From the NCBI GenBank assembly GCA_963777605.1, contig CAVZRV010000012.1, positions 1-15,119 of the forward strand: a stretch of 15,119 nt of DNA. The letters are read 5' to 3'. This DNA is from an uncultured Acidobacteriota bacterium. Its GTDB lineage: Bacteria; Acidobacteriota; UBA6911; RPQK01; JAPXNP01. The notes below the pieces were generated by a model. That model was not told the origin of the DNA. It saw only the letters and a list, made by a program, of their open reading frames with translations, and did not search any database. Both the position numbers and the translations under genes were made by a program. Of this stretch, positions 761 through 12,928 are shown in pieces; position 1 is the first letter of the stretch; every line of letters starts with the position of its first letter.

Positions 761-840
761 TGGATTTTACACTCGTTTCCCCGACGTCAACTACATTTCC
801 CTACCGCATTGACTCATAATTTTTGTTGTTGAAAGCGGGC

Positions 841-880
841 CGTTGCCTCAAGAGAATGTTACCGAGATTGGGAGGCAACG
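841..880 (+). promoter_or_regulatory. Hairpin sequestering the transposase RBS
   Basis: CGTTGCCTC (841-849) is the perfect reverse complement of GAGGCAACG (872-880), which covers the SD and abuts the ATG at 881. Confidence 0.6.
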
Positions 881-2488
881 ATGGACCGTCAGATCAGCAA
901 AGAGGCGAGAGCCGAGTTACTGGAAGCATTAAGGGAACGTTATCGCACCTCTGGGAAGGCGCAGAAGACTCGCATCTTGAACGAGTTCACGGCCGTAAGT
1001 GGCTACCACAGAAAGTACGCAACGCGCCTTCTGGGTGCCAGTCGGTTTCGAGAGAGTGACGTGACAGACGGCTTCAAACCTGCAGGGACCAAAGGCCGGC
1101 AGATCTACGATGAGGCAGTTAGGGAAGCGCTGGTCGTGCTTTGGGAAGCCGGAGACCGGATGTGTGGGAAACGACTGAAGGCCATCGTCCCCCAGTTGGT
1201 CGGAGCTTTGGAGCGTCACGGCCACCTGGCCCTCGACCCGGAAGTAAGGAGGCGTTTACTGGAAGTCAGTCCTGCAACGATCGACCGCCTACTGGCTCCG
1301 ATCCGCAAGCAGTCGAAGTCCCGCAGGAGACGGAGAGCGGTTCGAAAGATCAGCAAAAAGATTCCAGTACGCACCTTTGGAGACTGGAATGAGCCTCCTC
1401 CTGGCTATCTCGAAATCGACTTTGTTGTGCACTGTGGCGGCAGCATGGCCGGTTCATTTCTTCACACGTTGGTAGCGACGGACATCTGCTCAGGCTGGAC
1501 TGAATGCGTCCCCCTTCTGGTCCGGGAGCAATCGTTGGTGGTTGAAGGATTGGAGGCGCTCTTCCGCCAGATCCCCTTCCCGATTCGGGGCATTGACTCC
1601 GACAACGATGGAGCGTTCATCAACGACACCCTGTTGGGTTTCTGCGAGATGCACGGGATTGAATTCACTCGTTGCCGCGCTTACAAGAAGAACGATCAGG
1701 CGTGGGTGGAACAGAAGAACGGCTCTATTGTCCGGCGATTGGTTGGGCACGATCGGTTCTCCGGTATCATCGCTGCTCAGACCCTGGCGCACTTGTATCA
1801 GTCGGCTCGCCTCCACGTGAACTACTTCCAGCCCTCCTTCAAACTACGAGACAAGTCTCGAACTGGGTCGACCTTCAAACGCAACTACGACCTTCCGGCG
1901 ACTCCATGTGAACGGGTGTTGCGCCGGTCGGACGTCGAAGAGGCGATCAAAAAGAGACTGCGTTCCGTGCGTGACCGATTGGACCCGCTGGAACTGCTCC
2001 ACTCAATCCGTGAGGGTCAGGCCGCCCTGGCTCACCTGGCCTCAAGGACTGATTCCATGGAAGGGCCAGGAAAGAAGACGCTTGAACAGTTTCTCACAGA
2101 GTTGCCGACCTACTGGAAAGGAGGTGAAGTCCGGCCAACACACAGAGAAACTAAACAGGACGCCTCTCGTCACTGGCGAACCAGAAAGGACCCCTTCGAA
2201 GCGGTCTGGCTCGATGTGCTTCAGTGGTTGCAGCATGATCCAGACGAAACCGCCAAGGGACTGTTCGAACGTTTGCTGGACAAGTATCCCGGCCGTTTCT
2301 CAGATGGCCAACTAAGGACTCTCCAGCGCCGTGTTCGCGAATGGCGCCAGGTGATGGCCAAGCAACTCGTCTATGCCTTCATGAACGGTCCCACACCGGA
2401 GCAAAACGCCGCTGAGGTCAGAGTAGTCGGCGACTGTAGAAAAGAACACACTGCTCCGGGGCTGCACCGAGAATCCAACGGGGACTGA
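881..2488 (+). CDS. DDE (integrase-core) transposase, 535 aa, with C-terminal IstA-like HTH domain
   Basis: GGAGG RBS at 871-875; N-terminal helical/HTH region (GYHRKYATRLL); catalytic motifs LEIDFV, IDSDNDGAF, WVEQKN; codons 2168-2347 align ungapped to IstA codons 10355-10534. Confidence 0.92.
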   Translation: MDRQISKEARAELLEALRERYRTSGKAQKTRILNEFTAVSGYHRKYATRLLGASRFRESDVTDGFKPAGTKGRQIYDEAVREALVVLWEAGDRMCGKRLKAIVPQLVGALERHGHLALDPEVRRRLLEVSPATIDRLLAPIRKQSKSRRRRRAVRKISKKIPVRTFGDWNEPPPGYLEIDFVVHCGGSMAGSFLHTLVATDICSGWTECVPLLVREQSLVVEGLEALFRQIPFPIRGIDSDNDGAFINDTLLGFCEMHGIEFTRCRAYKKNDQAWVEQKNGSIVRRLVGHDRFSGIIAAQTLAHLYQSARLHVNYFQPSFKLRDKSRTGSTFKRNYDLPATPCERVLRRSDVEEAIKKRLRSVRDRLDPLELLHSIREGQAALAHLASRTDSMEGPGKKTLEQFLTELPTYWKGGEVRPTHRETKQDASRHWRTRKDPFEAVWLDVLQWLQHDPDETAKGLFERLLDKYPGRFSDGQLRTLQRRVREWRQVMAKQLVYAFMNGPTPEQNAAEVRVVGDCRKEHTAPGLHRESNGD

Positions 2489-2567
2489 GAGAGGGTCGTG
2501 CCTGGAATCGGAAACCCAAAGGGATGGTGTTCCGTCTTGGGAGGTGACAGTAAGGGTCCTTCGCCGC

Positions 2568-2649
2568 CCACCGAGGAGGCCCGGCTGCACTTCGTCCTGC
2601 GCCGCCTCCGGCGGCTCCGGACTCCGTTCCGCCCGGGCCTCCTCGGTGG
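2568..2649. repeat. 17-bp perfect inverted repeat in the IS 3' region
   Basis: CCACCGAGGAGGCCCGG (2568-2584) / CCGGGCCTCCTCGGTGG (2633-2649) with an inner GCCGCCTCCGGCGGC hairpin. Confidence 0.85.
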
Positions 2650-2791
2650 TAAAACACCTCAATCAACAACATGGTGTCAGGCAAAGCAAAAGGCTGAAAT
2701 CAGAGCAAACCAGGTCGACAAACTCAACATTCTCACTGGTAAGATTCCAGCCTGAGGCAACGGGCCAGGGAAATGTAATTGTCGTCGAGCA

Positions 2792-5754: not shown

Positions 5755-6114
5755 ATGACAAACGATTCCTCCACCACGCTGCGCCAACAGATCGAGCAGA
5801 TCCAAACCGAGCTGGCGGCTCTGGGGCCGATCCACCCCGGGAGCCTCTCCGAACAGTACAACGTCTGCGGGACGCCGGGCTGCCGCTGCAAGGATCCCGA
5901 CGATCCCCAAAAGCACGGGCCCTACCACCAGTTGAGCTTCACCTGGCGGGGCAAGAGCAGCTCGCGGTTCGTCAAACAGGATCGGCTCGAGGCGACTCGC
6001 CACAAGGTGGCCAACTACAAACGGCTGCGCGACCTGGTCAACCGCTGGGTGGACCTGGCCGTCGAATTGGAGCGGGCCGAACGCGAGGAAGCCAAACAGA
6101 GCCATGGAGCTTGA
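5755..6114 (+). CDS. DUF6788-like IS-associated small protein (CxxxxCxC...H)
   Basis: GSLSEQYNVCGTPGCRCKDPDDPQKHGPY...TWRGKS motif; overlaps the tnpC start. Start could be 5743. Confidence 0.8.
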   Translation: MTNDSSTTLRQQIEQIQTELAALGPIHPGSLSEQYNVCGTPGCRCKDPDDPQKHGPYHQLSFTWRGKSSSRFVKQDRLEATRHKVANYKRLRDLVNRWVDLAVELERAEREEAKQSHGA

Positions 6115-7460
6115 TCCCACCCGGCTGCCGGCCGATCCGGGGGCGCTGCGGGCCATCATCCTCGAACTGGTCGAAGATCTGGAGACGAGCCGGCGTCGAC
6201 TGCGCCAGGCCCAACACCTGTTGGAACAGCTGCTGCGTCACCGCTACGGGGCGAGACGGGAGCGGGTGGACGAGAACCAGCTGTTCTTGTTTGCCGCCGG
6301 GATCGTCGAAAGCGGCAAGGATCGGACACCCCCGGCGAGAGAAGAGACCCCCGCGCCGAAACCGCAAAGGAGAGGCCATGGTCGCCGGCCGCTGCCGGCC
6401 TCGCTCGAGCGCCGCCGGGTGGTCTACGACCTCGGGGAGGACGAACGGCATTGCCCCGAATGCGGGGATCCCCTGCACCACATCGGAGAGGACACGAGCG
6501 AACGGCTCGAGTACGTCCCGGCCTCCTTTCAGGTGATCGAGGAATCGTGTCAAAAGTACGCCTGCCGGAAGGGATGCACGGTGGTGACGGCCGACAAACC
6601 GCGGGCGCCGATCGACAAGGGAAGGCCGGGGCCGGGACTGCTGGCCCAGGTGGCGGTCTCGAAGTACGCCGACCATTTGCCGCTGTATCGTCAGGAAGGC
6701 ATCTATCGGCGGCAGGGCGTGGAGTTGTCGCGCCAGACCCTGTGCGGGTGGATGCGGCAATGCGCCGAACTCGTCGATCCTTTGTATGAACGGATGAAGC
6801 GTGAGGTCCTGAGCTCGAAGGTGGTCGGAACCGACGATACGCCGGTCAACGTCCTCGACCGGAGCCGATCGCGGAGCCGGGTGGGTCGGATCTGGACCTA
6901 TGTGGGGGACGGCCGGCATCCTTACACGGTCTACGACTACACGCCCAATCGCAGCCGGGCCGGACCGGAAGCGTTCCTGGACGACTTCACCGGATATCTG
7001 CAGGCGGACGCCTACGCCGGTTACGATCAGCTCTATCAGAATCCGAAGCGCCCGGTCGTGGAGGTGGCCTGCTGGGCGCACGCCCGGCGCAAGTTCTTCG
7101 AGGCCCAGTCGTCGGACGTGATGCGCTCGACGGTTTTACTGGCCTACATCCGGCTGTTGTACGACGTCGAACGGGAGGCCCGAAAGGCCAGGCTGACGGC
7201 AAAGCAACGTTATCGGTTACGGAGCCGGCGTTCGGGGCCGATTCTCGACGACATCCACGCCTACCTGGAAAAGGAGCGGGAACAGGTCTTGCCGAAGTCT
7301 CCGATCGGGGTGGCCATCGGCTATGCGCTCTCGAACTGGCGGGCGTTGGTCCGCTAACTGGAGGACGGGGATCTCGAGATCGACAACAACCCGGCCGAGC
7401 GCAGTCTGCGAGTGATCGCCATCGGACGAAAGAACTGGATGGTCCATGGTAGTGACAACA
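6104..7460 (+). pseudogene. tnpC: IS66 transposase TnpC with a nonsense codon and 3' truncation
   Basis: CPECG zinc finger, KYADHLPLYRQ, TDDTP, QADAYAGY, CWAHARRKF; TAA at 7355-7357 where Tyr is expected, then in-frame LEDGDLEIDNNPAERSLRVIAIGRKNW until similarity stops. Confidence 0.92.
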
Positions 7461-7940: not shown

Positions 7941-9140
7941 TCATCTCGGTGTCCTTTGTGGTGGGCCGCGCAGGAGCGTCGCAGCCGAGAAGGTCTCGAC
8001 GAGAAACAGTTTCCCTTGCTTACAGAAAGGGCACATCGACGGATCGGCACCGGTCGCCGGCGCGATACCGGTGCCGGAAGATCGGCCCGCCATGGAGTCG
8101 GCCTCGACGATCGGTTGCTCCGCCAGTAGACAGCGGCAGGTCTGGAGATTCTCCGCTCGATGACGGTTGGCCAGGAATCCATAGTATCGGATGCGAACGA
8201 AGCCCCGCGGAAGAACGTGAAGAAGGAACCTGCGGATGAACTCGTGGGCGTGGAGCGTGAGGGTAGTCTTGGCTCCCCCTTTCCGGTAATCCTTCAAGCT
8301 GAAAGTGACCCGCTGATCCTGGAACCCGATCAGCCGGTGATTGGAAACGGCGATCCGGTGAGTGTAACGAGCGAGGTAGTCGAGGACGGTCTCCGGAGTG
8401 CCGAAAGGGGGCTTCGAGTACACCACCCACTCCCTCTTTCGAGCGGAATGGAGGAGTTTGCGGAATGCTCGGGGCTCGGCGATTCCCTCCAGTAGTCCGT
8501 GGAAGGAGAGGCGATCTTGCTCGAAGGCCTGCTCGAGGAGTTCCAGGAACAACCGGCGAAACAGTCGGGAGAGGACTCGGACCGGGAACAGGAACCGGGA
8601 TCGGCAAGCAACCCATCGGAGCCCGTCGGAGCTCAGGCCTCCCGCCGGGACCACGCAATGGATATGGGGATGGTGCATAAGGTTCTGGCCCCAGGTGTGG
8701 AGGATGGCCAGAAAACCAATCGAGGCCCCCAGGTGTCGGGGATCGGAAGCCATGAGCAACAGGGTTTGGGAAACGGCTTGGAACAACAGGCGGTAGACGG
8801 TGCGGGGATTTTGCAGGGCGATGGGTGCCAGAGTGTGCGGCAAGGTGAACACGACGTGGAAGTAGGGGACGGGAAGGAGTTCCTTCCGGCGGGCGTCCAG
8901 CCATGCGGCTTTGGCTGAGGACTGGCACTTCGGGCAGTGCCGATTGCGACAGGAGTTATAGGAGATCCGACGCCTGGCACAGTGCTCGCACTGTTCGACG
9001 TGGCCCCCCAGCGCCGCCGTCCGACACCGTTCAATGGCCCGCATCACACGCTGCTGCCGGCGTGACGGTCGATAGGTTTTTCGATAATCTTCGCCGTGGA
9101 GACGGAAGAGGTCGGCCAGTTCCAGAGAGGGAAAACCCAT
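7941..9140 (-). CDS. IS91-family (Y2, HUH) transposase, 399 aa
   Basis: Zinc-binding CRT...SCRNRHCPKC, HVVFTLP, HUH HPHIH, YLARY, RIRYYG and C-terminal CPFC; start coupled to the integrase stop by a TAATG overlap. Confidence 0.96.
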   Translation of the reverse strand: MGFPSLELADLFRLHGEDYRKTYRPSRRQQRVMRAIERCRTAALGGHVEQCEHCARRRISYNSCRNRHCPKCQSSAKAAWLDARRKELLPVPYFHVVFTLPHTLAPIALQNPRTVYRLLFQAVSQTLLLMASDPRHLGASIGFLAILHTWGQNLMHHPHIHCVVPAGGLSSDGLRWVACRSRFLFPVRVLSRLFRRLFLELLEQAFEQDRLSFHGLLEGIAEPRAFRKLLHSARKREWVVYSKPPFGTPETVLDYLARYTHRIAVSNHRLIGFQDQRVTFSLKDYRKGGAKTTLTLHAHEFIRRFLLHVLPRGFVRIRYYGFLANRHRAENLQTCRCLLAEQPIVEADSMAGRSSGTGIAPATGADPSMCPFCKQGKLFLVETFSAATLLRGPPQRTPR

Positions 9141-9982
9141 TAACCGTCGAGTTCAGGGAGGGCATCCAGCGGACTGGCCGTCTGCGGAATATCCTGCAGC
9201 GCCACATGGGTATAGCGCACGGTTGAGGCAAGGCTCTGGTGGCCGAGCAGAATCTGGATCTTTCTAAGGTCGGCTCCTCCCTCCAGAAGATGGGTGGCGA
9301 AACTATGACGCAAGACATGGGGGGTGACGCGCTTATTCAGACCCGAGGCCAGGGCGGCTTTGCGACATATGCCCTGGACGGTGTGTGTGGAAACAGGCCG
9401 ATCGTTCCCGCGCCCGGGAAACAGCCAGTGCGTAGGTCGAGCCGCTCGCCAGTACTGCCGAAGCAGGGAGAGAAGCTTCTCGGGGAGCATGACATAACGG
9501 TCCTTTCGCCACTTGCCTTGATCCACCCGAATCACTTTCCGCCGGCTGTCGATGTCGGAGACGCGCAATCGGGTGACCTCGGAGATGCGCAAGCCGGCCC
9601 CGTAGGCCGTCATCAGAATGGCCCGGTACTTGAGGCTGCCGACGGCTTGAAGGAACTGGAGCACTTCGTCCGGACTGAGCACCACGGGAAGCCGCTTCTC
9701 CCGGTGAGCAAGGGCGATCCGCTCGATGTTCCAGTTGCAGTTCAACGTCACCCGGTAGAGAAAGCGCAGGGCACACACCGTCACATTGATGGAGCTTGAT
9801 GAAAGCCCCCTCTGCACCAGGTGGAGTTGATAGGCGCGAATCTCCTTGGGCCCCAGTTGTTCCGGGGACTTTCCGAAGTGCTTGGCGAAGGCTGCGACCC
9901 GGTCCACGTATCGTTTGCGGGTGTGGGCGGAGAGATTACGGATTCGCATGTCCTCAAGCATGCGGCGACGCAGTGTGGTCAT
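9140..9982 (-). CDS. Tyrosine recombinase/integrase of the IS91-like element
   Basis: AAGGAGG RBS before the ATG at 9982; SAM-like N-terminus MTTLRRRMLEDMRIRNLS; catalytic GLRISE, GKWRKDR, HVLRH, LGH and RYTH intact. Confidence 0.96.
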   Translation of the reverse strand: MTTLRRRMLEDMRIRNLSAHTRKRYVDRVAAFAKHFGKSPEQLGPKEIRAYQLHLVQRGLSSSSINVTVCALRFLYRVTLNCNWNIERIALAHREKRLPVVLSPDEVLQFLQAVGSLKYRAILMTAYGAGLRISEVTRLRVSDIDSRRKVIRVDQGKWRKDRYVMLPEKLLSLLRQYWRAARPTHWLFPGRGNDRPVSTHTVQGICRKAALASGLNKRVTPHVLRHSFATHLLEGGADLRKIQILLGHQSLASTVRYTHVALQDIPQTASPLDALPELDG

Positions 9983-10201
9983 GGGGAAACCTCCTTTTGG
10001 ATAAATCTCGGACATTCGGAAGTCGAGTATTCAGGAGGTTGGGAGAACCCGCAACGAAACGGAGACAAACGCAAGGTAAGGTCTACGGCAGAACCATGAA
10101 CCTCGTCAGTCCTACCGCGAAGCGGTTTAGTTCAATTAGACTTCCCTGATTTTCGGGGGGCGTCGCAAACTCTTCTGAATGGAAAACGGGAGAGTTTTTG
10201 G

Positions 10202-11698
10202 ATGGTGACGCCGGACCGGAAAGTGAGGAAGTTGATGACGGAGTACGAGAAGACGGGGAACTTGACGAGGGCGGCGCTGCGGGCGGATGTGGATGTGAAG
10301 ACGGCACGCAAGTACGTGCGGGCCGGGAGGTTGCCGAGCCAGATGAGGGCGGACCGGGATTGGAGGACGCGGCCGGATCCGTTCGAGGCGCACTGGGAAG
10401 AGTGCGAGAGGATCCTCGAAGACGCCCCGGAGTTGGAAGCCAAGTTTCTGTTTGAGTGGCTGTGCGAACAGTACCCCGGGGAGTATGAGGAAGGGCAGGT
10501 GCGGACGTTTCAGCGACGGGTCCGACGCTGGCGAGCGCTGCGGGGACCGGCCAAAGAGACCTACTTTCCGCAGCGTCATGAGCCGGGCAGGCGGATGGCG
10601 ACGGACTGGACTCGCATGGATGAGCTGGGGATCACGATCGGCGGCGAACCCTACCCTCATCTGTTGTGCCACTGCGTGTTGACCTACTCGAACTGGCAAT
10701 GGGCGACGATCTGTCGAAGCGAGAGCCTGCTGTCGCTGCGGCGCGGGATCCAGACGGCGCTGTTCCGACTGGGTCGTGTGCCGCAGGAACACTGGACGGA
10801 CAACTCGAGTGCGGCGACCCATCGGCCGGGGGGAGACGAGGGGGAGGGGCCGCGACGTCGGTTCAACGACAACTACCTGAAACTGATGGAGCACTTCGGG
10901 ATGGAGCCCCGGACGATCCAGGTGGGCGCGCCTCACGAAAACGGGGACGTGGAATCCCTCAACGGGGCGTTGAAGCGGCGCATGCGGCAGTACCTGCTGC
11001 TGCGGGGTTCGAGCGACTTCCGCGATGTTACGGCGTACCACCGTTTTCTCGAGCGGCTGCTGGAGCGAGTCAACGACAGACGCAGTCGACGCCTGGCCGA
11101 GGAACTGGCCCGAATGCGGAAGCTGAACGCTTCGCGTCTGGCCGACTACGTGGAGTATCGCTGCCGGGTGATGAGCTGGGGGACGATCACGGTGGACCGG
11201 CGGATCTACTCGGTTCCCGGCCGTCTGATCGGGGAACGGGTGGTGGCGCGCCGCTACGAAGCGCATCTGGAAGTCTACTTCAACGGAGTCTTCCAGTTCA
11301 GGGCTCCCTGGATCTCCCGTGAAGGGGGACCTGCCATCAACTACCGTCACCTGATCGGCCGGCTGGTCCGTAAACCCGGGGCGTTTCGGAACTATCGATA
11401 CAAAAGTGCCCTGTTCCCGACCGAGACCTTCCGTTGGGCCTACGACGCCTTGTCGGCGGCGCTGAGCGAGCGAACGGCGGATCGGGAGTATCTGCAGATC
11501 CTGCATCATGCGTCCGAGACGTTGCAATCGCGCGTGGAAGCAGCGCTGAACGACTTGCGCCGCCAGGGGAGCGTCCCCCGGCTGGATCGGGTGTTGGATC
11601 TGAGCCCCCCTTCGATTCCGGCTCCACCCCGGATGCGTCCGCTCGAGGTCAATCTGGGCGAATACGATGCCTTGCTCACTGAGGGGGTGGCGGTATGA
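10202..11698 (+). CDS. istA: IS21-family transposase IstA
   Basis: N-terminal HTHs, DDE motifs ATDWT, WTDNSS, ENGDVES, C-terminal YSVP beta domain; ATGA overlap with istB. Confidence 0.96.
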   Translation: MVTPDRKVRKLMTEYEKTGNLTRAALRADVDVKTARKYVRAGRLPSQMRADRDWRTRPDPFEAHWEECERILEDAPELEAKFLFEWLCEQYPGEYEEGQVRTFQRRVRRWRALRGPAKETYFPQRHEPGRRMATDWTRMDELGITIGGEPYPHLLCHCVLTYSNWQWATICRSESLLSLRRGIQTALFRLGRVPQEHWTDNSSAATHRPGGDEGEGPRRRFNDNYLKLMEHFGMEPRTIQVGAPHENGDVESLNGALKRRMRQYLLLRGSSDFRDVTAYHRFLERLLERVNDRRSRRLAEELARMRKLNASRLADYVEYRCRVMSWGTITVDRRIYSVPGRLIGERVVARRYEAHLEVYFNGVFQFRAPWISREGGPAINYRHLIGRLVRKPGAFRNYRYKSALFPTETFRWAYDALSAALSERTADREYLQILHHASETLQSRVEAALNDLRRQGSVPRLDRVLDLSPPSIPAPPRMRPLEVNLGEYDALLTEGVAV

Positions 11699-12453
11699 GC
11701 CAGGCGGGAGGACTCGAGATGCTGCTGCGCACCCTGCATCTGCCCAGTGTCGGGCGGGAATACCAGACGGTGGCCGCCTCGGCCCAGGCCGGTGAATGGA
11801 GCTACGAACAGTACTTGCACGCCCTGATGGAACTGGAGGTGCACGAACGGCGGGAGCGCAAGATCGCGCGACTGCTGAAACGATCCCAGTTGCCGGAGGG
11901 TAAGAGTCTGGCGACGTTGGAGCAGAAACGGTTGCCGGTCAAAGTCCGCCGCCAGATCCCGGTGCTGATCGAAGGCGGGTTCGTGGAACGGGCCGAGAAT
12001 ATCCTGGCCTTTGGGCTTCCCGGTCGAGGAAAGACGCACCTGCTGTCGGCAATCGCTCGGGAACTGATCTTGGGTCCAGGCCAGACGGTCTGGTTTACCT
12101 CGACTCGGCACTTGGTGGAGAAGCTGTTGGTTGCCCGCCGCGATCTTCGGCTGGAGGAACTGCTCAAGAAGCTGGACCGCTTCGACGTGATCCTGCTCGA
12201 CGACATCGGCTACGTCCAACAGAACCGGGAAGAGATGGAGGTGCTGTTCACCTTCCTGTCCGAACGCTACGAGCGGCGGAGCCTGATGATCACGTCGAAT
12301 CTGGTCTTCAGCGAATGGGACCGGATCTTCAAGGACCCGATGACGACGGCGGCGGCCATCGATCGGTTGATCCACCATTCGATCATCCTGGAGTTGGACA
12401 ACCCCAGCTACCGGGCGGAGGCGGCGCGAAGCCGACAGAACCAGGGCAACTAA
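11695..12453 (+). CDS. istB: IS21-family helper AAA+ ATPase IstB
   Basis: Walker A GLPGRGKT, Walker B ILLDDIGY, ITSN, AAIDRLIHH, SYR. Confidence 0.97.
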   Translation: MSQAGGLEMLLRTLHLPSVGREYQTVAASAQAGEWSYEQYLHALMELEVHERRERKIARLLKRSQLPEGKSLATLEQKRLPVKVRRQIPVLIEGGFVERAENILAFGLPGRGKTHLLSAIARELILGPGQTVWFTSTRHLVEKLLVARRDLRLEELLKKLDRFDVILLDDIGYVQQNREEMEVLFTFLSERYERRSLMITSNLVFSEWDRIFKDPMTTAAAIDRLIHHSIILELDNPSYRAEAARSRQNQGN

Positions 12454-12475
12454 TCCCGGAGGCTTGGAGAGAATC

Positions 12476-12751
12476 ATGTGGTCGGAACTGAACTTGGAAG
12501 AGCTGGAACGAGAAGACAATAACTATGTTGCGGACAATCACGGCCCCGACGAGGTGGAAGCGTTGGTTTGCATGGTCCGCCTGGAGCTGTACAACCGGGG
12601 AAAGCCCTGCGGTCCTAAGGCGCTGCGCCGACGGTTGGACCAACACTACGGTATGCAACCGCTACTGTCCGAGCGCACGATCGCTCGGATTCTGGCTCGG
12701 CACGGCTTGACCGGAGGCAGAACGGGACGATACCCCGGGGAGGAGGCGTGA
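12476..12751 (+). CDS. Small HTH-like passenger protein inside IS21
   Basis: GGAGA RBS; VRLELYNRGKPCGPKALRRRL...LSERTIARILARHGL resembles IS481/IS3-type transposase HTH segments; lies inside the right IR. Confidence 0.65.
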   Translation: MWSELNLEELEREDNNYVADNHGPDEVEALVCMVRLELYNRGKPCGPKALRRRLDQHYGMQPLLSERTIARILARHGLTGGRTGRYPGEEA

Positions 12752-12753
12752 CC

Positions 12754-12818
12754 GAACGGGTTGGGGTGTTCCGCCCTTGTCCCTTTCGGTCCTGCGGGCT
12801 CCACACCCCAACCCGTTC
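12754..12818. repeat. 16-bp perfect inverted repeat near the IS21 right end
   Basis: GAACGGGTTGGGGTGT (12754-12769) / ACACCCCAACCCGTTC (12803-12818). Confidence 0.85.
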
Positions 12819-12928
12819 CAACAACCCAAAACCAACAACGATGATCAGCAATGAAACCGAAAAGAATCAGTGAACCAGGTAGGGAAGTGTAGTTGTCGTC
12901 GGCAGGGAAATGTAGTTGACGCCGGGGA

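What the first reader, a model, noticed from the sequence alone, without database searches (positions are those of the whole stretch)
837..2791. DDE transposase with an IstA-like C-terminal domain inserted flush against an IS21 terminal repeat: candidate IS21-end-targeting IS
Seen: the 60 residues encoded at 2168-2347 (RHWRTRKDPFEAVW...YPGRFSDGQLRTLQRRVREWR) align without gaps at 33/60 identity (hand count) to the N-terminal region of IstA at 10355-10534. The element has its own unrelated IRs and N-terminal DNA-binding region, and its GGGCC target duplication abuts the inner edge of an IS21-type IR (2766-2791). Established: IstA N-terminal HTHs bind IS21 terminal repeats, and some IS target other elements' sites (IS4321/IS5075 at Tn21 IRs, IS1202 subgroups at Xer sites). 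Inference: the extra domain is a captured targeting module steering insertion next to IS21 ends, giving a safe site and possibly a ride on IstAB. This rests on one insertion.
Basis: partly seen in the sequence, partly recalled or inferred. Interest (0 to 1): 0.85.

Follow-up and report, generated by a model that had tools for sequence, protein, structure and literature searches.

The report
Insertion sequence that homes into IS21 ends
A small jumping gene whose enzyme carries a copy of the DNA-reading domain of a different jumping gene (IS21) sits exactly between two IS21 end repeats, and its relatives in many bacterial phyla are found at that same spot.

Summary
The domain observation is exact: 33/60 identities, BLASTP E=4e-14, and the match falls on the linker plus HTH-2 of IstA. 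The element boundaries were misread. The IS runs 805-2764, not 842-2761, and GGGCC is not a target duplication. The IS lies between two inverted IS21-type repeats (778-804 and 2765-2791), which together form a mini-IS21. The same genome holds empty ~55-bp copies of this mini-IS21 with 6-bp duplications.

Targeting is family-wide. In 80 loci from many phyla plus two own-genome copies, 58 of 68 assessable right ends abut an IS21-type repeat, 57 of them at a fixed spacing and none in reverse orientation. In two other genomes the same IS21 occurs with an intact R2-R1 end and with this IS inserted exactly between R2 and R1, flanked by a 4-5-bp duplication.

All 120 listed homologues carry the C-terminal domain (precomputed PF27155), and so do the listed IstA relatives. 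So the domain is a family trait, not a one-off capture.

Site- and orientation-specific insertion into IS21 ends is well supported. That the domain does the targeting is inference. I found no description of this in five library searches. It is a new variant of target-specific IS.

The parts
778..804 (+). Left IS21-type repeat (type A, tip to inner edge). This is the left half of a mini-IS21 and is target DNA, not part of the IS.
   Evidence: 24/25 identical to the reverse complement of R1 of the window's istAB element. Empty A+B' pairs occur elsewhere in the genome.
805..2764 (+). The insertion sequence proper ('ISX', 1960 bp). It starts CGCATTGACTCA and ends TGAGGCAACGGG.
   Evidence: Ends defined by family-wide conservation and by empty/occupied site pairs in G001 and G004. 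A second copy on contig C35 is 94% identical.
809..850 (+). Two direct subterminal repeats of the left end (TTGACTCA 809-816 and TTGCCTCA 843-850).
   Evidence: Same pair at about 73 and 39 nt before the ATG in most loci.
842..879 (+). GTTGCCTC (842-849) is complementary to GAGGCAAC (872-879). This possible stem would cover the GGAGG ribosome-binding site before the ATG at 881.
   Evidence: Read directly from the sequence; not tested.
881..2488 (+). Transposase, 535 aa, rve-type DDE core (D180, D241, E277).
   Evidence: Pfam PF00665 at 39.1 bits against a 32.6 cut-off. The three residues are invariant columns in alignment A1 and are present here. Foldseek finds integrase and IstA cores at E about 1e-6.
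2150..2383 (+). C-terminal domain homologous to the IstA linker plus HTH-2 (precomputed Pfam PF27155).
   Evidence: Three helices at 443-501 in the AF2 model, with pLDDT about 77-87 over residues 441-490.
2567..2651 (+). Long GC-rich hairpin in the 3' non-coding part of the IS.
   Evidence: Fold of 2489-2764 gives z = -3.7; 0 of 200 shuffles fold as well.
2753..2764 (-). Right end of the IS with its subterminal repeat (TTGCCTCA on the minus strand).
2765..2791 (-). Right IS21-type repeat (type B). This is the right half of the mini-IS21 and is target DNA.
   Evidence: 21/25 identical to repeat A.
10202..11698 (+). istA of the window's IS21-family element. The HTH-2 region is encoded at about 10355-10534.
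   Evidence: NCBIfam NF033546 at 194.4 bits against a 160 cut-off.
11695..12453 (+). istB.
   Evidence: PF01695 at 194.4 bits.
12881..12928 (-). Right end of the IS21 element: R2 (12881-12903) and terminal R1 (12904-12928), 23 bp apart and contiguous. This is an unoccupied ISX target.

Best explanation
Positions 805-2764 are an autonomous single-gene IS. Its plasmid relatives are labelled ISNCY. It has integrated at the centre of a mini-IS21, a ~55-bp mobile pair of inverted IstA-binding terminal repeats (778-804 and 2765-2791).

This is the family's normal behaviour. The IS inserts at the inner edge of the terminal IstA-binding repeat of one IS21 lineage, with its right end facing that repeat. 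The site lies a fixed distance from the conserved core CGWCAAYWA, whatever the sequence at the insertion point. Where visible, the insertion makes a 4-5-bp duplication. In full IS21 copies this places the IS exactly between R2 and R1.

Inferred mechanism. The N-terminal helical region binds the IS's own bipartite subterminal sites (TTGCCTCA-N8-GTTAC). The C-terminal domain is homologous to IstA HTH-2 and shares its conserved helix (QLRTLQRRV..WR). This domain would bind the tip-proximal conserved block of the IS21 repeat and position the transpososome about 15 bp away.

The result would be a safe landing site inside another mobile element. Insertion probably impairs that IS21 end, and the IS may be carried along when the mini-IS21 or IS21 moves.

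Shown: specific position and orientation, and the empty/occupied site pairs. Inferred: which domain reads the target, and the consequences for IS21. The confidence of 0.7 is for the whole statement: about 0.9 that insertion is targeted and about 0.55 that the C-terminal domain is the determinant.
For: Domain homology. All 120 listed ISX homologues and all 120 listed IstA relatives carry precomputed PF27155.

Target association (80 loci plus 2 own copies). The right flank carries the repeat core pointing tip-to-IS in 58 of 68 assessable copies, 57 of these at offset 13-17, and 0 of 68 are reversed. By eye, 3 of the 10 'none' cases still hold a diverged repeat. The control was 137 forward and 124 reverse hits in 3037 distal windows.

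Empty and occupied sites. In G001, 5 IS21 right ends have R2-R1 contiguous, and 7 have the IS between R2 and R1 with an ACCG or ACCGG duplication. In G004, one occupied end and one empty end share the same outside flank with a TTTCG duplication, and 10 further ends are empty.

istB ends directly upstream of the IS in 6 loci from 5 genomes.

With these ends, 10 of 66 loci show a 4-bp and 6 of 66 a 5-bp duplication. The duplicated sequences are unrelated to each other.

Copies that are 99.4-99.8% identical inside differ at several positions in the flanking repeats or have swapped repeat types.

In this genome, C12 and C35 hold the IS in opposite orientation at the identical junction. Empty mini-IS21 copies have perfect 6-bp duplications at 3 loci.

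In IS5376, HTH-2 contacts the CS1 block of each repeat, and the repeats are 23 bp apart (PMC10122671, passages read).
Against: The role of the domain is untested. IstA HTH-2 also makes protein-protein contacts in the IstA tetramer (PMC10122671), so the domain could serve assembly or binding of the IS's own ends.

The two copies in this genome show no duplication at the ISX junction (0-1 bp; and reading).

By eye, 7 of 68 right flanks have no repeat. The script scored 23 of 71 left flanks as having none, and at least 5 of those were misplaced left ends.

The IS termini (CG...GG) lack the TG...CA usual for this superfamily.

A 5-6-bp duplication outside the outer repeats in 7 of 24 palindromic loci fits movement of the whole composite equally well.

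Strict pattern searches for empty palindromes in G002 and G003 found none.

A 47%-identical Sinorhizobium relative lacks the repeat at the usual place on its right side.

The 80 loci are the best 80 of 580 confirmed stretches. More than 30 are from Dehalococcoidia MAGs and several are copies within one genome, so the counts are not independent events.
Confidence: 0.7

Rival explanations
1. The outer repeats are the IS's own terminal inverted repeats. On this view the real element is 778-2791 (2014 bp, TG...CA-type tips, 6-bp duplication), the C-terminal domain binds these ends, and the resemblance to IS21 ends reflects shared ancestry of domain and site.
For: The repeats are present at fixed spacing at both ends in 33 of 82 copies. 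A perfect 5-6-bp duplication lies outside them in 7 of 24 palindromic loci, including the C35 copy. The tips mostly begin TG and end CA.
Against: In G001 and G004 the same IS21 ends exist with R2-R1 contiguous and with only the inner unit inserted plus a 4-5-bp duplication. Outer repeats differ or swap type between copies that are 99.4-99.8% identical inside. By script and by eye, about 12 loci have the left repeat in direct rather than inverted orientation. Empty repeat pairs with their own 6-bp duplications exist in this genome. C12 and C35 have the IS inverted relative to the A and B halves.
Confidence: 0.06
2. Targeting is real but the C-terminal domain is not the targeting device. The domain would bind the IS's own ends or mediate oligomerisation. 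The site would be chosen through DNA shape at IS21 ends or through resident IstA/IstB bound there.
For: IstA HTH-2 also forms subunit contacts (PMC10122671). No binding data exist. Duplicated sequences at the insertion point are unrelated, which fits any ruler-type mechanism.
Against: The conserved helix and the WRTR.DPF block are shared between ISX and IstA consensus sequences. The flanking repeat core that stays constant across phyla is the block next to the tip, whereas the IS's own subterminal sites look unrelated to it. Mini-IS21 targets are hit in a genome with only one, possibly defective, IS21 of this type.
Confidence: 0.25
3. The association arises the other way round, or through co-mobilisation only. 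IS21 or mini-IS21 would insert around or next to this IS, or a few IS21::ISX composites were spread by IstAB, with no targeting by ISX.
For: Seven of 12 IS21 copies in G001 carry the IS at the same junction at different genomic places. That could partly reflect transposition of the composite.
Against: The insertion interrupts an otherwise contiguous R2-R1 and duplicates 4-5 bp of it. Junction variants (ACCG against ACCGG), a 95%-divergent IS21 copy and an IS21 left end are all occupied in G001. The same position is hit in IS21 variants with different sequence at the site, in many phyla, and in both orientations in mini-IS21.
Confidence: 0.04

Closest known systems
IS4321/IS5075 (IS1111 group) inserting in the 38-bp terminal repeats of Tn21-family transposons
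   Same: An IS that lands at one fixed position and orientation inside the terminal repeat of another mobile element.
   Different: As I recall, those use a DEDD-type transposase of the IS110/IS1111 kind. Here the enzyme is an rve DDE transposase. It also carries a domain homologous to the victim transposase's own end-binding domain.
IstA of the IS21 family, domain HTH-2 (IS5376 structure 8B4H; PMC10122671, passages read)
   Same: The C-terminal domain aligns to IstA residues 39-104. That stretch is the linker plus HTH-2, which reads one conserved block of each terminal repeat. The helix QLRT.QRRV..WR is shared.
   Different: The domain is C-terminal rather than N-terminal. There is no HTH-1 counterpart next to it and no istB gene. 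The NCBIfam IS21 score of 47 is far below the 160 cut-off. The IS21-type repeats are target, not own ends.
ISNCY ('not classified yet') transposases as labelled by NCBI annotation
   Same: Plasmid relatives at 46-47% identity in Rhizobium, Sinorhizobium and Ensifer are annotated 'ISNCY family transposase'.
   Different: This is a holding label, not a defined family. No NCBIfam ISNCY model matched at E<=0.01. My recollection that this may be ISfinder's ISDol1 group could not be checked: one search found 2 papers, seen as a listing only.
IS1202-group elements that target XerCD sites, and IS30 targeting of its own inverted repeats (both recalled; no call)
   Same: DDE-type IS with sequence-specific target choice attributed to the transposase.
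   Different: The targets differ (dif-like sites; own IRs). No captured foreign transposase domain is known to me in those cases.

Membership tests
rve (retroviral-integrase-fold) DDE transposases | Pfam PF00665 above the gathering score | tested here: met
   39.1 bits against 32.6, residues 173-269.
rve (retroviral-integrase-fold) DDE transposases | Conserved D, D, E triad, with E about 35 residues after the second D | tested here: met
   D180, D241 and E277 are invariant in alignment A1 and present in the window protein. Assigning these three as the triad is my reading.
IS21 family (for the 805-2764 element) | IstA-type transposase reaching the NCBIfam NF033546 cut-off | tested here: not met
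   47.3 bits against a cut-off of 160. Only residues 424-494 match, to profile positions 35-104.
IS21 family (for the 805-2764 element) | A second gene, istB (AAA+ helper), downstream of the transposase | tested here: not met
   There is a single long ORF at 881-2488. The region 2489-2764 is non-coding with a hairpin.
IS21 family (for the 805-2764 element) | Own ends made of repeated IstA-binding sites | tested here: not met
   The IS21-type repeats are target DNA. The IS's own ends carry TTGCCTCA-type repeats.
IS481 family | NCBIfam NF033577 cut-off | tested here: not met
   45.4 bits against 224.
IS21 family (for the 10202-12928 element) | IstA and IstB above cut-off, and terminal repeats R1 and R2 23 bp apart | tested here: met
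   NF033546 at 194.4 against 160. PF01695 at 194.4 bits. Repeats at 12881 and 12904. The left terminal repeat was not recognisable, only a copy with 3 mismatches at 10130-10146.
Target-specific IS that home into another element's terminal repeat (functional class) | Fixed position and orientation relative to the repeat in independent insertions | tested here: met
   57 of 68 right flanks at offset 13-17, none reversed. Opposite-orientation insertions at one junction in this genome.
Target-specific IS that home into another element's terminal repeat (functional class) | Empty and occupied versions of the same site | tested here: met
   G001: 5 empty and 7 occupied. G004: 11 empty and 1 occupied, including one pair with the same outside flank.
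Target-specific IS that home into another element's terminal repeat (functional class) | The transposase domain that reads the target has been identified | not testable with these tools
   Needs binding and transposition assays. Only homology to IstA HTH-2 is shown.
Pfam PF27155 | Domain listed for the protein | tested here: inconclusive
   It is listed in the precomputed column for all 120 ISX homologues and all 120 IstA relatives. The local Pfam copy returned only PF00665 for ISX, so I could not see the model's name or score.

The most novel reading that the evidence does not exclude
A widespread, ancient IS lineage (at least 7990 homologous protein clusters) is a dedicated parasite of one IS21 lineage. 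Its transposase acquired IstA's repeat-reading HTH-2 domain and uses it as a built-in homing device. This makes it a single-protein, accessory-free, site- and orientation-specific DDE integrase. It splits R2 from R1, so it would disable or hijack its IS21 host, and it could be retargeted by swapping the domain.
Probability: 0.5. Interest if true: 0.85.

Novelty: new variant of a known kind. Interest (0 to 1): 0.75.

Why it matters
Target-specific insertion by a lone DDE transposase is rare. Its molecular basis is known in only a few cases.

Here the likely reader module is identifiable by homology to a domain whose DNA contacts are already solved in IstA. The hypothesis 'one added HTH domain sets the integration site' is therefore directly testable by deletion and domain swaps.

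The finding also shows an arms-race or commensal layer among mobile elements: an IS living inside the end repeats of another IS across many phyla. This affects how IS21 copies and 'ISNCY' elements should be annotated. Curators could easily take the IS21 repeats for the element's own inverted repeats.

Tried and rejected
The family-wide left-end architecture places 837-841 inside the IS, and the C35 copy has GGGCC against GGGGT.

I first favoured 'outer repeats = own ends', because the C35 copy shares them and they are nearly universal. I dropped this after the empty/occupied pairs and the divergence of the repeats between near-identical copies.

I looked for a duplication at the ISX junction in the window's copies. 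None was found under any boundary shift that is consistent for both copies (and reading). This is unexplained.

Strict pattern searches for empty palindromic sites found 0 hits in G002 and G003.

Searching solved structures by sequence gave only integrase cores at E>=0.0013 and no IstA.

The AF2 model is of moderate quality (mean pLDDT 65.7). Foldseek gave only the generic integrase/IstA core, so no separate fold test of the C-terminal domain was made.

The domain census against 1.84 billion representatives gave 2371 hits at E<=0.001, but the 150 listed are mostly short fragments. It gave no view of architectures.

Cluster look-up gave no informative names. Rfam gave no match in the window.

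Literature searches found no paper describing an IS that targets IS21 ends. For some searches I saw listings and abstract starts only. For PMC10122671 and PMC12486865 I read passages. Supplements were not seen. Supplementary Fig. 8 of PMC10122671 may show which conserved block is tip-proximal, which I infer only.

Whether IS21::ISX composites move as units was not tested.

Full report
WHAT IS IN THE WINDOW

The window is contig C12 of a 6.7-Mb, 53-contig assembly and is crowded with mobile elements. The ORF at 881-2488 encodes a 535-aa protein with an rve integrase core (PF00665, 39.1 bits, residues 173-269). An IS21-family element lies about 7 kb downstream. Its istA is at 10202-11698 (NCBIfam NF033546, 194 bits) and its istB at 11695-12453 (PF01695, 194 bits).

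THE OBSERVATION

BLASTP gives 30/66 identities with E=4e-14 over ISX 417-482 and IstA 39-104. NCBIfam's general IS21 profile, positions 35-104, hits ISX 424-494 at E=1.9e-12. The similarity is therefore to IstA in general.

In the solved IS5376 IstA, HTH-1 is residues 1-39 and HTH-2 is residues 55-104, joined by a minor-groove linker. HTH-2 contacts the conserved block CS1 of each terminal repeat, HTH-1 contacts CS2, and the repeats are 23 bp apart (PMC10122671, passages read). The ISX C-terminal domain thus corresponds to the linker plus HTH-2.

Consensus sequences of 90 ISX and 106 IstA domains share WRTR.DPF, several hydrophobic positions and the helix GQLRT.QRRVR.WR. The AF2 model (mean pLDDT 65.7) shows three helices at 443-501, with pLDDT about 77-87 over residues 441-490.

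THE IS21-TYPE REPEATS

The motif CAAYTACATTTCCC with up to 2 mismatches occurs 5 times in the window against 0.10 expected. Two copies 23 bp apart form the right end of the istAB element: R2 at 12881-12903 and R1 at 12904-12928. One copy lies at 788 on the plus strand and one at 2781 on the minus strand. The 25 bases at 778-802 match the reverse complement of R1 at 24/25. So the IS is bracketed by two IS21-type repeats in inverted orientation, not one.

WHERE THE IS ENDS

A second full copy on contig C35 is 94% identical in DNA, and its intact 535-aa ORF is 507/535 identical. It carries the same outer repeats, but with types A and B swapped relative to the IS.

In 80 loci from other genomes, the region upstream of the ATG nearly always holds two direct TTG[CA]CTCA repeats about 73 and 39 nt before the start. 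The downstream region holds one inverted copy. The invariant bases just outside these repeats are CGCA on the left and, read inward from the outside flank, CCTG on the right. In the window this puts the IS at 805-2764 (1960 bp).

ARE THE OUTER REPEATS OWN ENDS OR TARGET?

Four lines of evidence say target.

(1) G001, the genome of L037, holds an IS21 in at least 12 copies. Five have the istB stop codon followed by contiguous R2-R1 and then different flanks. Seven have the IS inserted exactly between R2 and R1, with ACCG or ACCGG present on both sides but only once in the empty ends.

(2) G004 holds one occupied IS21 end and one 99%-identical empty end with the same outside flank. They differ by the IS plus a TTTCG duplication. 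Ten further IS21 right ends are empty.

(3) Within genomes, copies 99.4-99.8% identical inside differ at several positions in the roughly 25-bp outer repeats, or carry the other repeat type.

(4) This genome holds empty ~55-bp pairs (repeat A, 1-7 bp, inverted repeat B). Perfect 6-bp duplications flank them at C16:11213, C35:87514 and C31:19904, and there is a 5/6 case. They behave as mobile mini-IS21 elements. The C35 composite has a 6-bp duplication outside the outer repeats, and the window's composite has 4/6.

HOW GENERAL AND HOW PRECISE

I scored the 45 nt next to each IS end for the core CRNCGWCAAYWA with up to 2 mismatches, in 80 loci plus 2 own copies.

Right flank:
- forward (tip towards the IS) in 58 of 68 assessable, 57 of these at offset 13-17;
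- reversed in 0;
- none in 10, of which 3 still carry a diverged repeat by eye.

Left flank:
- forward in 41 of 71, 33 of these at offset 14-17;
- reversed in 7;
- none in 23. At least 5 of these 23 were misplaced left ends with the repeat at the expected place.
- Five scored as forward at odd offsets are really reversed by eye (L037, L039, L053, L062, L069).

Control windows from distal flanks gave 137 forward and 124 reverse hits in 3037.

The constant feature is therefore the IS's right end facing the inner edge of a repeat. The left end meets one of three things: an inverted repeat (the mini-IS21 context), the tip side of the next repeat inward (the R2|IS|R1 context, with istB ending directly upstream in 6 loci from 5 genomes), or unrelated DNA. 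In L020 the left end meets the HTH-2-coding part of an istA, possibly through an adjacent deletion.

With the nominal ends, 10 of 66 loci show a 4-bp and 6 of 66 a 5-bp duplication. The duplicated sequences are unrelated (ACCG, CCGG, GCTG, TTTCG, ATTCG, AAAAG, GTGCA). The site therefore appears to be set by distance from the conserved core rather than by the local sequence.

The record titles span many phylum-level labels: Planctomycetota, Chloroflexota/Dehalococcoidia, Acidobacteriota, Verrucomicrobiota, Omnitrophota, Myxococcota, Actinomycetota and others. A copy on Paraburkholderia phymatum STM815 pBPHY02 shows the direct context with ACCGG on both sides.

THE FAMILY

At least 7990 homologous clusters were found among 8000 scored candidates. 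The best 120 are 477-585 aa long, and all list PF00665 plus PF27155. The 120 best relatives of the IstA N-terminus also list PF27155, and some are named 'IS21 family transposase' by NCBI. The shared domain is therefore a family-wide trait of both lineages.

ISX fails the NCBIfam cut-offs for IS21, IS481 and IS3 and has no istB. Plasmid relatives at 46-47% identity are annotated 'ISNCY family transposase'.

MECHANISM: WHAT IS SHOWN AND WHAT IS INFERRED

Shown: the mobile unit, its position and orientation relative to IS21-type repeats, and the short duplications.

Inferred: the N-terminal helical region (helices 7-52 and 78-145 in the model) binds the IS's own bipartite subterminal sites. The C-terminal HTH-2-like domain binds the conserved tip-proximal block of the IS21 repeat and acts as a ruler.

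That HTH-2's block is the tip-proximal one is my inference from the domain order in IstA. The text I read does not say so.

Insertion separates R2 from R1 by about 1.7-2 kb. Because the IstA tetramer engages both repeats (PMC10122671), this probably impairs that end. Whether the composite still moves was not tested.

WEAK POINTS

- The two copies in this genome show no junction duplication.
- The IS termini are not TG...CA.
- A minority of copies lack the repeat.
- Outer duplications (7 of 24) cannot tell movement of an empty mini-IS21 from movement of a loaded one.
- The sample is enriched in a few MAG lineages.
- No binding or transposition data exist.
- I found no paper on such targeting in the held library. 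ISfinder could not be consulted.

VERDICT

The domain similarity is real, but the stated boundaries and TSD are wrong. The interpretation 'IS21-end-targeting IS' is right in substance and holds family-wide. The role of the domain is a strong but untested inference. My confidence is about 0.9 that insertion is targeted and about 0.55 that the C-terminal domain is the determinant.

Noticed in passing
window 6104-7357, 7941-9140, 9140-10015: The window also holds an IS66-family transposase (open to the end of the Pfam model, possibly truncated), an IS91-type Y2 transposase, and an adjacent tyrosine recombinase on the minus strand. The contig is largely a pile of mobile elements.
   Followed up: no
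window 10100-10201: The istAB element has no recognisable terminal left repeat. There is only a copy with 3 mismatches at 10130-10146. The element is single-copy in the genome. It may be truncated or defective, yet mini-IS21 pairs with its right-end sequence are scattered in the genome.
   Followed up: partly
window 12464-12751: A 95-aa ORF lies between istB and R2, inside the IS21 element. Its function is unknown.
   Followed up: no
window 2567-2651: A long GC-rich hairpin lies in the 3' non-coding part of the IS (z = -3.7). By eye, a comparable GC-rich inverted repeat sits downstream of the ORF in the 47%-identical Sinorhizobium relative (L093).
   Followed up: partly
G000 contigs C7:1040037, C16:11213, C16:32924, C30:428903, C31:19904, C35:87514: These are ~55-bp elements made only of two inverted IS21-type terminal repeats. 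Three have perfect 6-bp target duplications. They are unusually minimal MITE-like derivatives of an IS21-family element.
   Followed up: partly
G000 contig C53:1-320: The contig starts inside a copy of the IS (121 nt, 98.3% identical). The 200 nt of outside flank examined match the window's left junction. This is either a duplicated region or an assembly variant, not an independent insertion.
   Followed up: partly
L020:1177-1406: The left end of the IS abuts the part of an istA gene that encodes WRTRPDPF, the very domain the IS shares. This could be an adjacent deletion or recombination between the homologous coding stretches.
   Followed up: no
L064/L065 left ends: Two tandem outer repeats precede the IS's left end, and both copies are 100% identical across them. 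The IS may sit inside a longer array of IS21-type repeats there.
   Followed up: no
proteins P0259, P0263, P0269, P0278, P0341 and others: Some representatives match the 78-residue domain in two separate stretches, suggesting tandem copies of the domain in some proteins.
   Followed up: no
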